A DNA stretch of 64,000 nt from Candidatus Micrarchaeota archaeon. GTDB lineage: Archaea; Micrarchaeota; Micrarchaeia; Norongarragalinales; Norongarragalinaceae. The stretch is from contig CAYOZI010000001.1 in the NCBI GenBank assembly GCA_964408425.1, positions 8,861 through 72,860 on the forward strand, read 5' to 3'. Below the pieces are notes generated by a model that did not search any database, was not told the DNA's origin, and worked only from the letters and a program-made list of their open reading frames with translations. Both the position numbers and the translations under genes were made by a program. Shown here in pieces: positions 15,997-46,725 of the stretch. Positions within the stretch are counted from its first letter, which is position 1. Every line of letters starts with the position of its first letter.

Positions 15997-18456
15997 CTAA
16001 CCCCACGAACCTAATCCCGTCTGCTTTCCCTTGTTTTTCAACGCGTCCTCGTCGAAACCCAGTGACCCCAGGATCCTCAAAACGGCAGGCAAAACCTGGT
16101 GGTTCACGTAATAATCCGCATCGTAATCCTTAGCCAGTTCAACAACCCTCGACTGCAAATAAATCTTCTGCTTGCTCTTCGAAGTTTCCTTCCCTTCCGT
16201 CGTAATGACGAATCCGATTACGGAATTCTCCGGAATGCGCATTCCCTGTTTTATAGCGTTTTGCACAGCCCCCAATTCCGGCGACTGCACTGCATAAGAA
16301 GAAGCGCTTTTCCTCAATTGCGTGTAAATAACGCAATCCTCGAGAGGGATTTTCCCGGCCTTCAAATCCTCGACCGTTTTCATCACCAACGCCGCGGCTT
16401 TTTCCACATCCCCTTCCTTCAACAGTATTTCCAGAACTTTTCTCTGCGTTTCCTTCGCGATCTTGCTCCAATCCCTTCTCACCAATTCAAAGCCCCTTAT
16501 CTTGATTTTTCCCTTCTCGTCTATCAAAGCATACTTCTTTTTCGCGCCCTGCTCCTCCGCTCCCTTGACTTTCCTGGAAACGAATATTCCCCGCGGATAA
16601 AACCCTTCCAACTCCAGCTGCATTGCCTCGGGAAGGCCGGCGTTAATCTTTTTTTGAAAAGCAACGACCTTTTCCTTGCTCGAGTAAAGCAAAAACGCGG
16701 AATCCGTATCCGCGTACAAAGGCTTCAACCCGAATTCCTCCGCCTTCTGGAGCGTTTGCTGTATATAGTGCCTCCCCCAAGCGGTAGTCGCCTCCCCTCC
16801 CTCTCGCGTATACCACCGTGAACGCGCGTAGAGAAGATATCCGTAAGTGGAATTCGCCAGGATTTTCAACGACCACTGCCTTGCATCGAGAATCTTGTAC
16901 TCCTCGGACTTTTCATCCACGCTTTTCATCTGTTTTTTTATCTTCGCCCTTTCCTTCAAAACCTCCTCCAGCATTTCCGGAATGATTCCCTTCCGTTTTT
17001 TGCAGAAGTGATGGCCTTGAGGAGAAACGAAACCGTCTCCCTTGCAACAATCGCAATTGAGCGTCGTAGAGTCGATGTTATGGGAAATGATTATGGACGG
17101 ATACAGGGACCGGAAATCGAGGACTGCGATATTTTCGTAAACCCCGGCATCCGGCGTTTTGACGAACGCCCCTTCCACCATCCCCTGCCTCGCGTCGATA
17201 TCTTCGGAAGAAGGCTTGTTGGGAGCCAATTCGTTTCTTTCAAACGCCTTGCTTAAAAGAAAAGTCTCGACCAATTGCGATGAAGTGGCGCGCGAAACTT
17301 CGATCAAAGGCATTTTGACGAGTTTTCCCAATTCCAGCTGCAGCGGAAGAAAGCGTTTAGCCAAGCCCAGGCAGGCGACCGCATCAACAAGGCAGTATTC
17401 CGCAAGGAAATCCCGCTCTTTTTGAGAGCCGGAATCCCAAATCTTGTGGATGTCCTGTTTTTTCACGCCCAGCTTCTTTCCCCCGAGAACCGTGGCGTAA
17501 ACCTCTTCGAGAGTCAAACGCGAAACCTTGATCGTTCCCGTGAAATTCAGGAACGAAGCGACGGGAAAAACATCGTAGTGGATCCTTCCGGAAATCTCGG
17601 AAATGTTCCTCAAGCCTATCCTTCTTGTTTTGACAGGGTTTTTGTCCCTGCCCAAGCGGAAGTCGGCACTAAGCTTTTTCGCCCTGGTTTGAAGATAAGG
17701 CAAATCGAACTGGTCCCCGTTGTAAGTGCATATAACGTCAACGTGTTTTTCCCTCAGCAAATCGCAATACGCTTCGATCATTTTCCTTTCCGAATCGAAG
17801 CTCTTAACGAATTTTTCCGAAAAGTGCTTGTCGTAAGAATAAACGCCCTTCGCCTCGCCGTCGAACCCGATCATCAAAGCAGGATCTTTCTCCGCGTTAG
17901 GGATGGTTTCCGGATTGTAAGTTTCAATATCCAGCGAAAGAAAACGCAGCTTTGGAATCTCGTCGGAATCCACAGTCTTTATTTTTCTGATTGAAAGCCC
18001 CGCGTGCTCCACTTCCTGCAAGGCGTTGGGCTTCAGGCTCTTATCCAGCAGATAACGCCGCGTGTAGGGAATGTCGAATTCGAAAGGCTCGCCGTATTTC
18101 TTCGCCCCTTCCCTCAGCGAAGGGACGTCCGACGCTTTAAAGCCAAATACTTTCAGCAAAACCACGTTTTTGTTTCGGAAGGAAAGCGAGGTTTCCTCAA
18201 CCCTCTTCACCCTGCAGTCTCCGAATTTCGACGAAACAACCATGCTCTCTAGCTTTCCCTTAGCCTCCTTCAGGCTCTCCTTGGGTTTCAGCAAAAAGTA
18301 GGGCTCGAAATTATCATACAGCCGGATGGTTTTTCCGGAAAGCGTTTTGAGCGTCAGGCGTATGGCGCTTTCCTTGTTTTTCAAAACGTGGTCTACATCC
18401 AGCAGAAACGCTTTCACCACGCCGTTCTTGTTCTTTGCCTTCACGATCAAACCCAC
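15997..18456 (-). CDS. polB: DNA polymerase, family B
   Basis: 819 aa; exonuclease and polymerase motifs including YGDTDS-like PLYADTDS and YNGDQFDLPYL; no intein. Confidence 0.9.
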   Translation of the reverse strand: MGLIVKAKNKNGVVKAFLLDVDHVLKNKESAIRLTLKTLSGKTIRLYDNFEPYFLLKPKESLKEAKGKLESMVVSSKFGDCRVKRVEETSLSFRNKNVVLLKVFGFKASDVPSLREGAKKYGEPFEFDIPYTRRYLLDKSLKPNALQEVEHAGLSIRKIKTVDSDEIPKLRFLSLDIETYNPETIPNAEKDPALMIGFDGEAKGVYSYDKHFSEKFVKSFDSERKMIEAYCDLLREKHVDVICTYNGDQFDLPYLQTRAKKLSADFRLGRDKNPVKTRRIGLRNISEISGRIHYDVFPVASFLNFTGTIKVSRLTLEEVYATVLGGKKLGVKKQDIHKIWDSGSQKERDFLAEYCLVDAVACLGLAKRFLPLQLELGKLVKMPLIEVSRATSSQLVETFLLSKAFERNELAPNKPSSEDIDARQGMVEGAFVKTPDAGVYENIAVLDFRSLYPSIIISHNIDSTTLNCDCCKGDGFVSPQGHHFCKKRKGIIPEMLEEVLKERAKIKKQMKSVDEKSEEYKILDARQWSLKILANSTYGYLLYARSRWYTREGGEATTAWGRHYIQQTLQKAEEFGLKPLYADTDSAFLLYSSKEKVVAFQKKINAGLPEAMQLELEGFYPRGIFVSRKVKGAEEQGAKKKYALIDEKGKIKIRGFELVRRDWSKIAKETQRKVLEILLKEGDVEKAAALVMKTVEDLKAGKIPLEDCVIYTQLRKSASSYAVQSPELGAVQNAIKQGMRIPENSVIGFVITTEGKETSKSKQKIYLQSRVVELAKDYDADYYVNHQVLPAVLRILGSLGFDEDALKNKGKQTGLGSWG

Positions 18457-18938: not shown

Positions 18939-19279
18939 TTCTATTGCCAGGCGCGAAAAGCCATTCCCAACTCACGGCCAAAGTCCACGCCAGGCCCCAC
19001 GGCGGCATGAGCAGGGTAGTAGTGGCGTTGTGCGATTCGGAATTGCTTGGAAAAATATACACCCAGGGCGAGAGGGTTTTGGACCTGAAGAACTACAGGG
19101 GTTTTTACGAAGGTGCTGCGGTTACGGAAATCGAAGCCATAGAACTTTTGAGGATGGCGGACAACGCGAACATAGTGGGCGAAAAAAGCGTGGCAATAGC
19201 GAAAAAAGCGTTCGGCGTTTCCTCAACCGAAACGAAAACGATAAAGAAAATCCCGCACTTGCAATACTACAAAATCTAA
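18935..19279 (+). CDS. Hypothetical protein
   Basis: 114 aa, ATGA overlap with the upstream ORF; no recognisable motif. Confidence 0.4.
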   Translation: MILLPGAKSHSQLTAKVHARPHGGMSRVVVALCDSELLGKIYTQGERVLDLKNYRGFYEGAAVTEIEAIELLRMADNANIVGEKSVAIAKKAFGVSSTETKTIKKIPHLQYYKI

Positions 19280-19410
19280 GAAGATAAGACTGCAATAATT
19301 TTTTGTTTCTATAACAAAAACGCCAGTAGGCCCTATTACAACATGATCCAACTGACGCCCAGAAGGCAACTTAAAATCAGCTGCTAGATAAAATTCGTCG
19401 TTCAAATTTT

Positions 19411-19638
19411 TTAGACTATTATCAACTTCCACTTCTCCAGCCACATCAGATAATGAGTTCCTTTAGAAAAAAATCCAGCACTAATAATGAACGAAAGAAC
19501 GGAAAACCACACCAAAAAACTAGCATAAGAACTAATCCAGTATAAAATCAGAGAAGAAAAAAAGAGAACAAAACTATATTTAAAATAATGGCCAGAGGTA
19601 TCGGATAAGTAGGAACTACGTGGCTTGATTAGTTTCAC
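19411..19638 (-). CDS. Small hydrophobic ORF inside an AT-rich tract
   Basis: 75 aa, 2 predicted TM helices; the GC content is far below that of the surroundings. Confidence 0.2.
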   Translation of the reverse strand: MKLIKPRSSYLSDTSGHYFKYSFVLFFSSLILYWISSYASFLVWFSVLSFIISAGFFSKGTHYLMWLEKWKLIIV

Positions 19639-19683: not shown

Positions 19684-19797
19684 GTGCGGCGACCGGGAAT
19701 CGAACCCGGGCTACCAGCTTTCTGCTCTTTCTTTGGTCAAGCTTTCTTTCGCAAAGAAAGGTTGGAAGGCTGGAATCATACCATTAGACCATCGCCG
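19684..19797 (-). tRNA. tRNA-Gly (anticodon UCC) with a ~43-nt intron at the canonical 37/38 position
   Basis: Acceptor GCGGCGA/TCGCCGC, anticodon stem CCAGC/GCTGG, loop CTTCCA|intron|A, T-arm CCGGG-TTCGATT-CCCGG. The intron (~19719..19761) carries the hairpin TTTCTTTGCGAAAGAAA. Confidence 0.75.
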
Positions 19798-19815
19798 CGC
19801 GAATAATACTGGAGC

Positions 19816-19831
19816 ATAATTAAATTTAAAG
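19816..19831 (-). promoter_or_regulatory. Candidate TATA box (TTTAAATTTAA) ~25 nt upstream of tRNA-Gly
   Basis: AT-rich palindromic element at archaeal -26 spacing relative to the tRNA 5' end. Confidence 0.35.
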
Positions 19832-19977
19832 CAAATGCGCAGGTTTGAAGTCCTCGATTTGGCCCAGCGCTATGTCTTTAAGTGAAGCTCGAATTTGCTT
19901 CATCAAATTCGTGTCTTCCAAAACATCACGCGTTTCTTTGTCAAACAATTAGGCATCTCCTCCTCAAAAAAAGGTAG

Positions 19978-20081
19978 TGGGGTCGCTGAGATTCGGACTC
20001 AGGTCTCCAGCCCCCCAGGCTGGAAGGATGCGTCGCCGAACAAATACGAACGTATTTGCTCTCAGGCTACCCCACGACCCC
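19978..20081 (-). tRNA. tRNA-Pro (anticodon GGG) with a ~28-nt insertion (putative non-canonical intron) in the D-loop
   Basis: Acceptor GGGGTCG/CGACCCC, D-stem GGGT/ATCC separated by a 39-nt loop containing the hairpin CAAATACGTTCGTATTTG, anticodon stem CCAGC/GCTGG with loop CTGGGGG, T-arm CTGAG-TCCGAAT-CTCAG. Confidence 0.65.
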
Positions 20082-20083
20082 AG

Positions 20084-21247
20084 TTACAATTTATGGTTGG
20101 TTATGCTTAAAAACGCTTTAAGATTTTCAGGATCATCGCTTATCCAGGCTGGAATAGCATCGGTTGAATTTCTCGAAGGAAAACCGTTCGCTTTAAGCCA
20201 CCGTCCAACAGCCACGCAGGAAACAAAACATTGGTAACTCTTTAGACTCTTTTTCCTGGCGTAAGGAACGGGCAAATTGAATTTTAGCAACACTATTCGC
20301 GCAAAATCCAGGATCAATTCTGTCGAGGAGGAAATGATGTAAAACTGCTTCAGGTTTTTGGATAAGCCGCCATATCTAAGCAGATAAGCGAAAAGCTTTG
20401 CTAGATCGACATCAAGTGAGTTGGGAAGGACAGCCCTTCGCTTGTCGTACAGGAACTCGAGGGCGTTTTTGTCAATCCAAAACGCGTTATCCCAAGCCTG
20501 AACCTTCCGCTCAGCCACCAAAGCGGCTTTTTCCAAAACAAGGTTTTTTCTATTATCAAGCCCAAACCGTATTTCTTTTTGAAACAATGAATTCGAACGA
20601 GTACGTACACCGAATATCATAGATTTGGTCCGATGCCCGTCTTTCCTGAGGTTGGCGTTTTGAATAATGACGTTGGAAGTTTTAATCCCAAAATTCAACA
20701 GCATTTCCTTCAGATCGTTTATGAACGAAATCCCATCATCCAGAAGCAGTTCGTCCTTGTTTAGGTGGAAAGAAACAAGGTATGAATTGAAAGAAGTGGA
20801 TTTGCTAATCCAACCCTCGCACTGAAACGCAATTGAAAGGTAAGCCTTGGAAAAAACGCGGTTTGTTTTTATCCACGCTGGAACCCTAAAAGGCACGAGC
20901 ATCTTGTCGCCTTTCGGAACTCCGGCTTCAAAAAGAAGCTTAGCTACTTTTGAACTATAAAACCTGCACTTATAGCTAAAACCAAAACCAGTTCCCTGTT
21001 CATAGTGGGGTTTCAAACCGAATTTGCTTACAACGATTTTTTCAAAGTCTTTAAGAAAAACAAAGTTTGACGAAGACAGGTAAAAACGACTCAAATTCTT
21101 TCCAAGATGGCCGTCGAACGTCAGGTAACTAACGAGTTTAGCCAAATCCTCGTCTAAAACTAGAGTGTCGGCTGTCATGCGTTCTACCTGCGGGTTAATG
21201 CAAACACTCGCAAGTAAACAGAATTTAAAAACTTGGGCAGACACCAC
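20084..21247 (-). CDS. Double-motif LAGLIDADG-like homing-endonuclease-like protein, free-standing
   Basis: 387 aa with a clear internal duplication: DLAKLVSYLTFDGHLGKNLSRFYLSSS.. and DLAKLFAYLLRYGGLSKNLKQFYIISS... The first motif keeps the acidic residue; the second is degenerate. The stop codon lies 2 nt from the tRNA-Pro 5' end. The likely true start is MTADTL at 21178. Confidence 0.5.
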   Translation of the reverse strand: MVSAQVFKFCLLASVCINPQVERMTADTLVLDEDLAKLVSYLTFDGHLGKNLSRFYLSSSNFVFLKDFEKIVVSKFGLKPHYEQGTGFGFSYKCRFYSSKVAKLLFEAGVPKGDKMLVPFRVPAWIKTNRVFSKAYLSIAFQCEGWISKSTSFNSYLVSFHLNKDELLLDDGISFINDLKEMLLNFGIKTSNVIIQNANLRKDGHRTKSMIFGVRTRSNSLFQKEIRFGLDNRKNLVLEKAALVAERKVQAWDNAFWIDKNALEFLYDKRRAVLPNSLDVDLAKLFAYLLRYGGLSKNLKQFYIISSSTELILDFARIVLLKFNLPVPYARKKSLKSYQCFVSCVAVGRWLKANGFPSRNSTDAIPAWISDDPENLKAFLSITNHKL

Positions 21248-21277
21248 CTTGCCGGTGGCGCTATTTCTGCCGGTGGC

Positions 21278-21475
21278 TTAAAATCTTTGGTAGGGGATGA
21301 TTTCCTCGACCAAATCAACTTGTCCGAGAAACATTCTCCTGCAGCAGTATCTGTTAAAACCGAGTTCGTCCAAAACCTTTCCAGCATCCTCTCCCGAAGT
21401 GGTGCGCTGCTTGAACTCCTCCCAATTCTCGGCAATGGGCTTTCCGCACGTGAAACAACGGACTGGAACCAACAT
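21278..21475 (-). CDS. rpoN: DNA-directed RNA polymerase subunit N (Rpb10)
   Basis: 65 aa, MLVPVRCFTCGK...YCCRRM zinc-binding signature. Confidence 0.9.
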   Translation of the reverse strand: MLVPVRCFTCGKPIAENWEEFKQRTTSGEDAGKVLDELGFNRYCCRRMFLGQVDLVEEIIPYQRF

Positions 21476-44883: not shown

Positions 44884-45022
44884 GTCCCGCCGGCCGGATT
44901 TGAACCGGCAACCCTCCGATTTCCGCGAACGTTCTCGCGCTTTTTCTTTAACGAACTTTTCTTTTGGAAAAAGAAAAGTTCCAGGCTACAGTCGGATGCT
45001 CAGCCAGGTTGAGCTACAGCGG
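44884..45022 (-). tRNA. tRNA-Tyr (anticodon GUA) with a 65-nt intron at the canonical 37/38 position
   Basis: Exon 1 is CCCGCTG-TA-GCTC..GAGC-A-TCCGA-CTGTAG, exon 2 is A-TCGGA-GGGTT-GCCGG-TTCAAAT-CCGGC-CGGCGGG-A. The intron (44920..44984) carries hairpins GGAACTTTTCTTTT/AAAAGAAAAGTTCC and CGCGAGAAC/GTTCGCG. Confidence 0.75.
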
Positions 45023-45041
45023 GACAAGCCTTTAAAATTTC

Positions 45042-46496: not shown

Positions 46497-46725
46497 GCTG
46501 GAGAAACTAAAACACTATTTTTAACCAGCTGCGGCCAATAGTTTAAAAGAGGGGGATTGGGGTAGCCTGGCATCCTTCCAGCTTTGGGGCACTTTTTTGC
46601 CGCGGGCAAAAACCTGCACTAAAAAGGGCAAAACAGCTGGAGACCTGAGTTCGAAAGCTTTTCTTTCAAGGAAAGGAAAAACCGAATCTCTCAGATCCCC
46701 CACTCGCCAAAAAGGTTTTGGAAAA

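What the first reader, a model, noticed from the sequence alone, without database searches (positions are those of the whole stretch)
19978..21247. Double-motif LAGLIDADG-like ORF wedged between rpoN and tRNA-Pro, with its stop codon 2 nt from the tRNA 5' end
The 387-aa ORF has two clearly homologous halves, each starting DLAKL..YL...G.L.KNL..FY..SS. That is the pseudo-dimeric layout of single-chain LAGLIDADG homing endonucleases and maturases. It interrupts the conserved S9–rpoN block of the ribosomal-protein/RNAP cluster, and no rpoK, eno or rps2 follows in the window. It abuts an intron-containing tRNA-Pro. It therefore looks like a selfish element or homing-endonuclease gene that inserted into a housekeeping operon and is possibly co-transcribed with the tRNA.
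Basis: partly seen in the sequence, partly recalled or inferred. Interest (0 to 1): 0.6.

Follow-up and report, generated by a model that had tools for sequence, protein, structure and literature searches.

The report
Free-standing homing endonuclease beside tRNA-Pro
The ORF is a real LAGLIDADG nuclease gene, most likely a selfish "homing" element, wedged between rpoN and tRNA-Pro; it belongs to a family found in DPANN archaea almost always just in front of a tRNA-Pro gene, while close relatives have the same site empty.

Summary
A minus-strand ORF (20084-21247) ends 2 nt before a tRNA-Pro(GGG) gene (20081-19978) that carries a 31-nt D-loop intron. The likely start is ATG 21178, giving 364 aa.

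An AlphaFold model (pLDDT 94) shows three LAGLIDADG half-domains, not two. Residues 1-~230 are a complete double-motif enzyme with both catalytic acids (D22, E121). It resembles I-Tsp061I, I-DmoI and intein endonucleases. The C-terminal ~110 aa are a copy of half-domain 1 with the catalytic Asp replaced (Y269).

In 25 of 28 relatives' loci with DNA in hand, from Micrarchaeota and from Woese-, Pace- and Nanoarchaeota, the gene sits immediately upstream of a tRNA-Pro. Two different neighbourhoods occur: rpoN-X-tRNAPro(GGG) and X-tRNAPro(TGG)-L37ae. Close relatives have clean empty sites in both. The gene is AT-richer than its neighbours and has a promoter-like box with a family-conserved upstream motif. 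Two relatives carry in-frame stop codons.

Best reading: a free-standing homing endonuclease gene that targets the 5' flank of tRNA-Pro and is probably co-transcribed with the tRNA. This is a new variant of a known kind. Cleavage activity and target site are untested.

The speculative extension is that it cooperates with small tRNA introns.

The parts
21268..21277 (-). Upstream repeat copy 1, GCCACCGGCA. It abuts the rpoN stop codon and is the left edge of the inserted cassette.
   Evidence: (D11). The only two exact copies in 64 kb are these two, 18 nt apart. The core CAC[CT]GG is found upstream of X in 12/26 loci against about 2% expected.
21250..21259 (-). Upstream repeat copy 2, GCCACCGGCA, followed by AGGTGGTG. 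Candidate operator.
   Evidence: The longer string CACYGGMAAGGTGGTGTC is shared with L016.
21223..21234 (-). TATA-like box AAGTTTTTAAAT, about 45 nt upstream of the ATG. Presumed promoter of the cassette.
   Evidence: Identical CAAGTTTTTAAAT in L035. An ATATTTAAAC-type box occupies the same place in Woese-type loci. Function is inferred, not shown.
20084..21178 (-). X: 364-aa free-standing LAGLIDADG (intein-type, PF14528) endonuclease gene, stop codon included.
   Evidence: GC 0.418 and GC3 0.46, against 0.47-0.49 and 0.585-0.62 in neighbouring genes.
21104..21148 (-). LAGLIDADG motif 1 (DLAKLVSYLTFDGHL), with catalytic Asp22.
   Evidence: VSYLTFDGHL is conserved in at least 90% of 44 family members. 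It aligns to motif 1 of the T. litoralis VMA intein endonuclease.
20807..20851 (-). LAGLIDADG motif 2 (SKAYLSIAFQCEGWI), with catalytic Glu121.
   Evidence: (the Pfam hit covers this region).
20102..20416 (-). Third half-domain (aa 255-359). It copies half-domain 1 up to the start of a second-motif helix. The catalytic Asp is replaced (LLRYGG, Y269).
   Evidence: 39% identity, E 8e-17. In one search the same alpha-beta-beta-alpha-beta-beta-alpha pattern recurs at 257-360 with pLDDT about 95. It is present only in a Micrarchaeota subgroup.
19978..20081 (-). tRNA-Pro(GGG) gene. Its 5' end is 2 nt after the X stop codon.
20032..20062 (-). 31-nt intron between G18 and G19 of the D-loop, containing a hairpin. 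The helix-bulge-helix context is relaxed.
   Evidence: Alignment with the intron-less orthologues of L014 and L036. Fold.
19966..19972 (-). T7 run 5 nt after the tRNA 3' end. Likely archaeal terminator of an X-tRNA transcript.
   Evidence: Read from the sequence. The role is inferred.
21278..21475 (-). rpoN, the left flank of the insertion site.
   Evidence: RNA_pol_N, 101 bits.

Best explanation
X is a free-standing homing endonuclease gene of the intein-type LAGLIDADG (DOD) family. It occupies the 5' flank of a tRNA-Pro gene.

The inserted cassette runs from the rpoN stop codon to the tRNA 5' end. It comprises two GCCACCGGCA repeats, a TATA-like box and the 364-aa ORF.

Residues 1-~230 form a complete single-chain, two-motif nuclease with both catalytic acids. 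The last ~110 residues are a duplicated, catalytically dead half-domain. I infer that this domain serves as an extra DNA-binding or dimerisation module.

Inferred mechanism: the enzyme cuts X-less alleles at or next to the 5' end of tRNA-Pro genes. Repair from an X-bearing allele then copies the cassette in. In the occupied allele, X and the tRNA are transcribed together from the cassette's promoter, and the mRNA 3' end is made by tRNA 5' processing. This ties the element to an essential gene.

Shown: fold, motifs, family, tRNA-Pro linkage, empty sites, composition. Inferred: cleavage activity, target site, co-transcription and autoregulation through the upstream motif.
For: Fold and motifs:
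- The AF2 model has pLDDT 94.3 and pTM 0.85, with three alpha-beta-beta-alpha-beta-beta-alpha units.
- Foldseek finds I-Tsp061I (E 1.6e-9), I-DmoI, TliVMA, PI-SceI and PI-PfuI.
- The family profile aligns both LAGLIDADG motifs and block D to the TliVMA intein endonuclease (E 1e-6).
- D22 and E121 are nearly invariant in the family.

Linkage to tRNA-Pro:
- Counting the window, 25 of 28 X loci with DNA in hand have a tRNA-Pro immediately downstream.
- Two unrelated neighbourhoods occur: S9-rpoN-X-tRNAPro(GGG) in Micrarchaeota, and X-tRNAPro(TGG)-L37ae-PfdB in Woese-, Pace- and Nanoarchaeota, where the upstream neighbour varies (eRF1, L11, others).

Empty sites:
- rpoN is followed within 3-71 nt by tRNA-Pro in 27 of the 80 rpoN loci fetched (spacers).
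- L036 is empty, yet it shares 92/94/89% aa identity in S9/L13/rpoN with X-bearing L035. Both are the window's closest relatives.
- L116, L117, L119 and L120 have tRNAPro(TGG)-L37ae without X. L116 and L117 have eRF1 85% identical to X-bearing L008.

Foreign or selfish signature:
- GC3 is 0.46, against 0.585-0.62 in neighbouring genes.
- X is less conserved than host markers between close hosts and more conserved between distant ones.
- Two copies carry single in-frame stops, one replacing the catalytic Glu codon.
- Some relatives carry the 'homing endonuclease associated repeat' PF18780.

Own expression signals:
- The TATA-like box is conserved, and the CAC[CT]GG motif is enriched upstream of X (12/26 loci, P about 6e-14). 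It was not seen in the empty intergenic regions read, apart from a related string in L041.
Against: - No cleavage activity or target site has been shown.
- The first 26 nt of the intron-less tRNA-Pro next to X in L014 are identical to those of the empty-site tRNA-Pro in L036. The target therefore cannot lie wholly inside the tRNA 5' half unless immunity comes from the insertion itself.
- In Micrarchaeota, X identity roughly tracks host identity: 62% for the closest pair and 40-58% for the others. This fits long vertical inheritance plus loss as well as it fits repeated homing.
- The motifs are conserved as strongly as in housekeeping proteins.
- No relatives were found in viral contigs that could act as vectors.
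- DNA exchange between DPANN cells, which homing needs, is not documented here.
Confidence: 0.68

Rival explanations
1. Domesticated LAGLIDADG protein. X is a vertically inherited host factor, either a site-specific nuclease or a DNA-binding regulator in the manner of HO or WhiA. It would be functionally tied to tRNA-Pro, for instance by controlling the promoter that drives the tRNA. Absences would be secondary losses.
For: - X is single-copy per genome in the 21 GTDB genomes found.
- Its position next to translation and transcription genes is conserved across two phylum-level groups.
- The motifs are nearly invariant.
- X identity is comparable to that of ribosomal proteins.
- A conserved operator-like motif lies upstream.
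- WhiA appears among the structural matches.
Against: - Very close relatives lack X, with clean ancestral-looking junctions (L036; L116, L117). Most archaea with rpoN-tRNA-Pro also lack it. It is therefore dispensable.
- Both catalytic acids are retained, unlike in WhiA or maturases.
- Composition is atypical.
- Some copies carry nonsense codons.
- X similarity is decoupled from host similarity in the Woese-type set.
Confidence: 0.2
2. Collaborative homing pair. X is the nuclease partner of small ORF-less tRNA introns. These are the acceptor-stem 3/4 bulge-helix-bulge intron in Woese-type loci and the D-loop 18/19 intron in this window. X would cut intron-less tRNA alleles at the intron insertion site. 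The intron would protect its own allele and be co-converted together with X.
For: - The window's X-linked tRNA-Pro has an intron in its 5' third.
- 16 of 18 Woese-type X loci have a canonical 3-4-3 BHB intron at position 3/4, whose central helix covaries (AAUG:CAUU, GAUG:CAUC, CAUG:CAUG, UACG:CGUA, UAUG:CAUA). Only 1 of 4 X-less loci has it (Fisher P 0.024, no phylogenetic correction).
- L032 has X next to a tRNA-Trp that carries the same 3/4 intron architecture.
- L116 keeps the intron and the short post-X leader but lacks X, as expected if the two parts are separable.
Against: - X occurs with intron-less tRNA-Pro in L014, L015, L026 and L029.
- The window's second tRNA-Pro (TGG, about 46552-46705) has an uninterrupted 5' half.
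- tRNA introns are common in these genomes anyway: 4 of 7 tRNAs in the window have one.
- The sample is small and phylogenetically non-independent.
- The cleavage site is unknown.
Confidence: 0.15
3. Decaying or inert remnant. The ORF is kept open only because it lies between a promoter and an essential tRNA, and the protein has no activity.
For: Nonsense codons occur in L021 and L024. The third half-domain has lost its catalytic residue.
Against: - The 364-codon frame is intact.
- Motif residues and the fold are strongly conserved over 35-60% identity.
- Both catalytic acids are present.
- The same domain architecture is conserved in at least six long-form homologues.
Confidence: 0.05

Closest known systems
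I-DmoI / I-Tsp061I (archaeal rRNA-intron-encoded single-chain LAGLIDADG endonucleases)
   Same: They are the best structural matches to aa 1-~215 (TM about 0.6-0.67 normalised to the target). They are also single-chain two-motif enzymes of about 190-200 aa from archaea, with one acidic residue per motif.
   Different: Sequence identity is 12-15%. Those enzymes are encoded inside BHB introns of rRNA, whereas X is free-standing, with its own start codon and promoter-like box, in front of a tRNA gene. X also has a third half-domain.
Intein (DOD) endonucleases: PI-TliVMA, PI-SceI, PI-PfuI, and those of RtcB and RFC inteins (Pfam LAGLIDADG_3)
   Same: They are the closest relatives by sequence: profile E 1e-6 to the TliVMA intein, aligned across motif 1, block D (GxPxxK..VP) and motif 2. 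NCBIfam hits fall on the intein parts of RtcB, RFC and RpoA''.
   Different: X has no Hint or splicing domain and is not inserted in a host protein.
HO endonuclease of yeast (free-standing, derived from a VMA-type intein endonuclease). Comparison from general knowledge.
   Same: It is a free-standing protein of the intein-type LAGLIDADG lineage with extra DNA-binding parts.
   Different: HO is domesticated for mating-type switching and keeps relics of the Hint domain. X shows presence/absence polymorphism and no Hint relic.
Phage T4 SegB (free-standing homing endonuclease in the tRNA gene cluster). Comparison from general knowledge.
   Same: It is a free-standing HEG placed among tRNA genes that promotes inheritance of the adjacent tRNA region.
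   Different: SegB is a GIY-YIG enzyme in a phage. X is a LAGLIDADG enzyme in cellular DPANN chromosomes, and no viral relatives were found.
F-CphI / psbA intron 'collaborative homing' in cyanophages. Comparison from general knowledge.
   Same: A free-standing HEG lies next to a gene that carries an ORF-less intron.
   Different: There the intron is a group I intron, and cleavage at the intron insertion site was demonstrated. Here the introns are archaeal BHB introns in tRNA and nothing has been tested. X also occurs without an intron.
WhiA (LAGLIDADG-derived transcription factor)
   Same: It has a two-half-domain LAGLIDADG scaffold plus an extra C-terminal DNA-binding module. It appears among the structural hits.
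   Different: WhiA lost its catalytic residues and has an HTH domain. X keeps D22 and E121, and its extra module is a third LAGLIDADG half-domain.

Membership tests
LAGLIDADG homing endonuclease (single-chain, two-motif) | Two alpha-beta-beta-alpha-beta-beta-alpha half-domains packed through the two LAGLIDADG helices | tested here: met
   AF2 pLDDT 94.3 and pTM 0.85, with the matching secondary-structure pattern. Foldseek probability 1.00 to I-Tsp061I, I-DmoI, PI-SceI and I-OnuI.
LAGLIDADG homing endonuclease (single-chain, two-motif) | An acidic residue at the C-terminal end of each LAGLIDADG motif (metal-binding active site) | tested here: met
   D22 (TFDGH) and E121 (QCEG) are at least 90% conserved in 44 sequences. 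They align to the D and D of the TliVMA motifs.
LAGLIDADG homing endonuclease (single-chain, two-motif) | Score at or above the curated Pfam cut-off for a LAGLIDADG model | tested here: met
   PF14528 scores 22.7 bits against a cut-off of 22.5, which is marginal. Family members score 23.5-46 bits.
LAGLIDADG homing endonuclease (single-chain, two-motif) | Site-specific double-strand cleavage of a long (14-40 bp) target | not testable with these tools
   No biochemical data exist and the target is unknown.
LAGLIDADG homing endonuclease (single-chain, two-motif) | Mobility: occupied and empty alleles of the same site among relatives | tested here: met
   L035 (X+) versus L036 (X-) at 89-94% aa identity of the flanking genes. 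L008 (X+) versus L116 and L117 (X-) at 85% eRF1 identity.
LAGLIDADG homing endonuclease (single-chain, two-motif) | Encoded within a self-splicing intron, archaeal intron or intein (the usual home of this family) | tested here: not met
   X has its own ATG, promoter-like box and stop codon. The 5' exon of the neighbouring tRNA lies downstream of the stop codon. X is free-standing.
Intein | Hint splicing blocks (A, B, F, G) flanking the endonuclease, in frame with a host protein | tested here: not met
   No Intein_splicing, Hint or intein N/C-terminal hits in Pfam or NCBIfam for X. These hits are present in the control P0151.
WhiA-like / maturase-like domesticated LAGLIDADG proteins | Loss of the catalytic acidic residues, with function as an RNA or DNA binder | tested here: not met
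   Both acids are retained in half-domains 1 and 2. Only the extra third half-domain has lost its acid (Y269).
Collaborative homing pair (free-standing HEG plus ORF-less intron) | HEG adjacent to an intron-containing gene, with the intron at the enzyme's cleavage site | tested here: inconclusive
   Adjacency is met here and in 16/18 Woese-type loci. Exceptions exist (L014, L015, L026, L029). The cleavage site is unknown. Fisher P is 0.024, uncorrected.
Archaeal spliced tRNA intron (for the window's tRNA-Pro) | Removal restores a canonical cloverleaf, and the splice sites lie in a bulge-helix-bulge context | tested here: met
   Removal of 20062..20032 gives a 73-nt sequence that aligns base for base with the intron-less orthologous tRNA-Pro(GGG) genes. 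The BHB is only relaxed: a 3-nt bulge next to a 3-bp helix. The 3/4 introns in other loci are canonical 3-4-3 with covariation.
IS / transposon | Transposase, terminal inverted repeats, target-site duplication | tested here: not met
   No transposase domain. No flanking TIR or TSD was found, only one 12-nt inverted match, which is near chance expectation.

The most novel reading that the evidence does not exclude
The X family may be the nuclease half of a 'collaborative homing' system that mobilises ORF-less archaeal tRNA introns. The free-standing LAGLIDADG enzyme would cut intron-less tRNA genes near their 5' end. The small bulge-helix-bulge intron (position 3/4 in Woese-type loci, 18/19 in this window) would interrupt the site. 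Intron and nuclease gene would then spread together by gene conversion. This would be the first concrete DNA-level mechanism for the gain and spread of non-canonical tRNA introns in archaea.
Probability: 0.15. Interest if true: 0.85.

Novelty: new variant of a known kind. Interest (0 to 1): 0.6.

Why it matters
LAGLIDADG endonucleases are nearly always found inside introns or inteins. This family is free-standing, chromosomal and tied to one kind of target neighbourhood, the 5' flank of tRNA-Pro, across two DPANN phylum-level groups. Natural occupied and empty alleles are available for direct testing.

- It offers a tractable case of how a selfish nuclease persists in tiny, gene-poor genomes. 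Sitting between a promoter and an essential tRNA may be the mechanism.
- It provides a natural three-half-domain LAGLIDADG scaffold of possible interest for meganuclease engineering.
- If the intron association holds, it gives a route to explain how archaeal tRNA introns move.
- For annotation, such ORFs in ribosomal and RNA polymerase clusters of DPANN genomes are mobile-element cargo, not missing core subunits. The adjacent intron-bearing tRNAs are missed or miscalled by standard tools.

Tried and rejected
- A single-sequence search of PDB sequences found nothing. Only the family profile reached the VMA intein.
- Rfam (E-value mode) missed the window's tRNA-Pro. ARAGORN with introns called it tRNA-Ala. 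I identified it by alignment to orthologues and a home-made tRNA-Pro nhmmer profile.
- Idea: X lies inside a long tRNA intron, because several Woese-type tRNA-Pro genes start with a mismatched AAA/TAA instead of GGG. Rejected. The missing GGG exon lies a few nucleotides after the X stop codon, followed by a short 19-45 nt BHB intron at position 3/4.
- Idea: X is an IS or part of an integrated element. Rejected. There is no transposase, TIR or TSD, and the insertion is only the about 1.2-kb cassette.
- Idea: the tRNA 5' half alone is the target. Weakened, because the 5' halves are identical in an occupied locus (L014) and an empty one (L036).
- The IMG/VR scan found no relatives.
- Three literature searches found nothing on this family.
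- P0044, the most divergent homologue, had no DNA available.
- The 11-nt match between the tRNA anticodon arm and the codons for IPAWI, and the 12-nt inverted match TTTAAGCCACCG, are near chance expectation. I did not use them.
Full report
**What is at the coordinates**

On the minus strand the window carries S11, RpoD, tRNA-Leu(GAG), L18e, L13, S9 and rpoN (21278-21475), and then the ORF in question. The mechanical ORF is 20084..21247, 387 aa from GTG.

The probable start is ATG 21178, giving 364 aa. All homologues begin 5-10 residues before the DLAKL motif. A TATA-like box (AAGTTTTTAAAT, 21234..21223) lies downstream of the GTG, and the same box is present in a relative (L035).

The stop codon TAA (20086..20084) is followed after two bases by a tRNA-Pro(GGG) gene (20081..19978). 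Rfam missed this gene, and ARAGORN in intron mode miscalled it as tRNA-Ala. Alignment with the intron-less tRNA-Pro(GGG) of orthologous loci shows a 31-nt insertion (20062..20032) between G18 and G19 of the D-loop. Removing it gives a sequence that matches those intron-less tRNA-Pro genes from end to end. The insertion contains a hairpin, and its splice sites sit in a relaxed helix-bulge-helix context.

A T7 run follows the tRNA. After it come a 40-codon ORF and a tRNA-Gly(TCC) with a 43-45-nt intron.

**The protein**

- Pfam LAGLIDADG_3 hits just above its curated cut-off (22.7 vs 22.5 bits).
- A profile of 44 family members aligns motif 1, block D and motif 2 to the homing endonuclease of the Thermococcus litoralis VMA intein (E 1e-6).
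- NCBIfam hits fall on the intein parts of RtcB, RFC and RpoA''.
- The AlphaFold2 model built on that alignment is confident (pLDDT 94.3, pTM 0.85). It shows the alpha-beta-beta-alpha-beta-beta-alpha unit three times: about 10-85, 107-202 and 257-360.
- Foldseek against the PDB returns I-Tsp061I (E 1.6e-9), I-DmoI, VMA inteins, PI-SceI, PI-PfuI, I-OnuI, WhiA and a maturase.

However, they are half-domains 1 and 3.

Residues 1-~230 already form a complete two-motif enzyme. Motif 1 (VSYLTFDGHL, with D22) and motif 2 (AFQCEG, with E121) are both nearly invariant in the family.

The C-terminal copy extends from the first motif to the beginning of a second-motif helix and stops there. The residue equivalent to D22 is Y269. 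The short forms (about 210-270 aa) that make up most of the family lack this third unit. It therefore arose by partial internal duplication in a Micrarchaeota subgroup. Other family members instead carry an N-terminal 'homing endonuclease associated repeat' or a C-terminal HTH. This suggests the family repeatedly acquires accessory DNA-binding modules. That role for the third half-domain is inferred.

**Size and spread of the family**

An exhaustive profile search finds 2190 cluster representatives at E<=1e-3 and 104 at E<=1e-30. In GTDB species genomes, the strict motif SY[LV]TFDGHL finds 21 loci, one per genome. They come from Micrarchaeota, Woesearchaeota, Pacearchaeota and Nanoarchaeota. 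None was found in IMG/VR.

**The key regularity**

Counting the window, 25 of the 28 loci for which I have DNA carry a tRNA-Pro gene immediately after X. The exceptions are L032 (a tRNA-Trp follows), L033 (tRNA-Pro 1.1 kb upstream) and L034 (none). This holds in two unrelated neighbourhoods.

- In Micrarchaeota the order is S9-rpoN-X-tRNAPro(GGG)-tRNAGly(TCC), as in the window.
- In the Woese-, Pace- and Nanoarchaeota loci it is X-tRNAPro(TGG)-L37ae-(Pcc1)-prefoldin beta-UPF0147. The upstream neighbour varies: eRF1 on the other strand, L11 and others.

The X stop codon lies 2-35 nt from the tRNA 5' end in most loci. In L007 the ORF overlaps the first exon.

**Empty sites**

A metagenome scan with an rpoN alignment returned 80 loci. 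In 27 of them, with several different tRNA-Pro anticodons (GGG, CGG), rpoN is followed within 3-71 nt by tRNA-Pro (spacer lengths). This is the arrangement without X.

The two closest relatives of the window are L035 and L036 (L13 79-80%, S9 72%, rpoN 75-78% aa identity to the window). They share 92% (S9), 94% (L13) and 89% (rpoN) identity with each other. L035 has X. L036 has a 26-nt spacer and an intron-less tRNA-Pro(GGG). L037, L040 and L041, which are Micrarchaeota-like by S9/L13 similarity or by the tRNA-Pro/tRNA-Gly pair, are also empty.

For the second context I took L37ae homologues and looked up four genomes. All have tRNA-Pro(TGG) directly upstream of L37ae and no trace of X. L116 and L117 have eRF1 85% identical to that of X-bearing L008, which is closer than L008 is to other X-bearing genomes (67-71%).

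X has therefore been inserted in front of two different, independently conserved tRNA-Pro genes. Occupied and empty alleles are interleaved among close relatives.

**Further signs of a selfish cassette**

- X is AT-richer than everything around it: GC 0.418 and GC3 0.46, against 0.47-0.49 and 0.585-0.62.
- The inserted segment starts right at the rpoN stop codon with two exact GCCACCGGCA repeats. These are the only exact copies in 64 kb (D11). The TATA-like box follows.
- The core CAC[CT]GG occurs within 100 nt upstream of X in 12 of 26 loci from both phylum-level groups, against about 2% expected (binomial about 6e-14, not corrected for relatedness). It was not seen in the empty intergenic regions I read, with one exception: the L041 spacer contains the related GACCGGCAAGG.
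- L021 and L024 have one in-frame stop codon each. In L024 it replaces the catalytic Glu codon. These are either early decay or assembly errors.
- In the Woese-type set, X is less similar than host markers between close hosts (71 vs 83%) and more similar between distant hosts (68 vs 44%), with Spearman 0.47. This fits some horizontal movement, although rate heterogeneity could mimic it.
- In Micrarchaeota, X identity roughly follows host identity. Long vertical residence therefore also occurs.

**Most likely mechanism**

X is a free-standing homing endonuclease gene of the intein-type LAGLIDADG lineage that targets the 5' flank of tRNA-Pro genes. The enzyme would cut an X-less allele at or near the tRNA 5' boundary. 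Repair from an occupied allele would copy the cassette.

In the occupied allele there is no room for a tRNA promoter between X and the tRNA in most loci. This includes the window (2 nt). The tRNA is therefore probably transcribed from the cassette's promoter together with X and released by tRNA processing.

The upstream repeats are candidates for autoregulation. That idea is by analogy with I-TevI, which I cite from memory.

- Shown here: family membership by fold and motifs, the tRNA-Pro linkage, empty sites in both contexts, the composition bias, and the conserved upstream motif.
- Inferred: nuclease activity, the target, co-transcription, autoregulation, and the role of the third half-domain.

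The 5' 26 nt of the tRNA next to X in L014 equal those of the empty L036. If the target includes the tRNA, immunity must therefore come from the insertion itself or from other changes.

**Rivals**

1. A domesticated, vertically inherited protein tied to tRNA-Pro expression. Support: single copy, strong motif conservation, conserved position. Against: clean absence in the nearest relatives, retained catalytic acids, atypical composition, nonsense alleles. I give it about 0.2.
2. Collaborative homing with small tRNA introns, described in the next section. About 0.15.
3. An inert remnant. About 0.05.

**A side result that feeds the most novel reading**

In 16 of 18 Woese-type X loci the tRNA-Pro begins with three bases that cannot pair with the 3' acceptor strand. 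The missing GGG lies 19-45 nt upstream, just after the X stop codon. The intervening piece sits in a canonical 3-4-3 bulge-helix-bulge:

5'-N-A-U-G1[G2 G3|A]...stem...C-A-U-N'[N N|G4]C-U-G

The central helix shows compensatory changes: AAUG:CAUU, GAUG:CAUC, CAUG:CAUG, UACG:CGUA, UAUG:CAUA, AGUG:CGCU. Splicing restores GGGGCUG:CAGCCCC. These are acceptor-stem (3/4) introns.

L032 has X next to a tRNA-Trp with the same intron architecture. Among the four X-less genomes, three have an intact 5' end and their own TATA box. One (L116) keeps the intron and the short leader that follows X in L008, but has no X. All four combinations of X and intron exist (L026, L029, L014 and L015 are X+ without such an intron). 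The association is only suggestive (Fisher P 0.024).

The window's own D-loop intron fits the same idea loosely. However, the window's other tRNA-Pro (TGG, about 46552-46705, with two introns further 3') has an uninterrupted 5' half.

**Comparison with known systems**

By fold, X is closest to I-Tsp061I and I-DmoI. By sequence, it is closest to intein endonucleases. It is not an intein (no Hint blocks), not intron-encoded, and not a WhiA- or maturase-type derivative (catalytic acids kept).

The following analogies are from general knowledge and were not tested here: HO (free-standing, intein-derived), T4 SegB (a free-standing HEG in a tRNA cluster), and F-CphI with the psbA intron (collaborative homing).

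I found no paper describing this DPANN family or its tRNA-Pro linkage in the searchable library.

**Verdict**

The finding is real.

It is a new variant of a known kind: a free-standing, tRNA-Pro-flank-specific LAGLIDADG homing endonuclease family, here in a three-half-domain form.

Interest is moderate to good (0.6). It would be high only if the intron-mobilisation reading is borne out.

Noticed in passing
L020, L022, L031, L021, L030, L018, L017, L025, L028, L023, L024, L008, L009, L027, L115, L116 (between the X stop, or the promoter, and the tRNA body); L032 for tRNA-Trp: tRNA-Pro(TGG) genes, and one tRNA-Trp, carry a short intron at acceptor-stem position 3/4. It sits in a canonical 3-4-3 bulge-helix-bulge whose central helix covaries. 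ARAGORN reports these genes with a mismatched 5' end or misses them.
   Followed up: partly
window 46552-46705 (+): A second tRNA-Pro (anticodon TGG) has two introns: one 3' of the anticodon and one in the T-loop. No X is next to it. ARAGORN did not find it.
   Followed up: partly
window 19684-19798 (-) and 44884-45023 (-): tRNA-Gly(TCC) has a 43-45-nt intron and tRNA-Tyr(GTA) has a 65-nt intron. Together with the two tRNA-Pro genes, 4 of the 7 tRNAs seen in the window are interrupted.
   Followed up: no
window 21250-21277 (-); upstream of X in L035, L015, L016, L019, L021, L023, L024, L025, L028, L007, L009: A repeated CAC[CT]GG(A/C)A motif lies 10-25 nt upstream of the TATA-like box of the X cassette and is conserved across two phylum-level groups. 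The empty-site spacer of L041 contains a related GACCGGCAAGG. This could be a scar of a lost cassette or a native promoter element.
   Followed up: partly
window 19826-19948 (-): A 40-codon ORF (MFDKETRDVLEDTNLMKQIRASLKDIALGQIEDFKPAHLL) with a strong GAGGAGG Shine-Dalgarno-like sequence lies between tRNA-Pro and tRNA-Gly. It has no Pfam hit.
   Followed up: no
L021 4481-4483; L024 826-828: Otherwise well-conserved X genes carry single in-frame stop codons. In L024 a TAA replaces the catalytic Glu codon of motif 2.
   Followed up: partly
L052 1762-2705: In another relative, about 950 nt with unrelated small ORFs (139 and 78 aa) sit between rpoN and tRNA-Pro(GGG). The junction may be a recurrent insertion spot.
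   Followed up: no
L001 3463-4134 (-): An HNH endonuclease with the 'homing endonuclease associated repeat' (PF18780 + PF01844) lies 1.3 kb downstream of X in the CG1_02_55_22 Micrarchaeota contig. It may be a second homing-type nuclease nearby.
   Followed up: no
window 19223-19444 (-) and 15997-18456 (-): A 73-aa ORF carries a NERD-like motif (GPTGVFVIETKNY), judged by eye and not checked. A family-B DNA polymerase gene follows the tRNA pair. No rpoK, eno or rps2 is present here, in the window or in relatives.
   Followed up: no
L022 (OZ246410.1, 774-kb chromosome): The record is titled 'uncultured Methanosarcinales archaeon'. However, it carries the Woese-type X-tRNAPro-L37ae locus and has a DPANN-sized genome, so the taxonomic label looks doubtful.
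   Followed up: no
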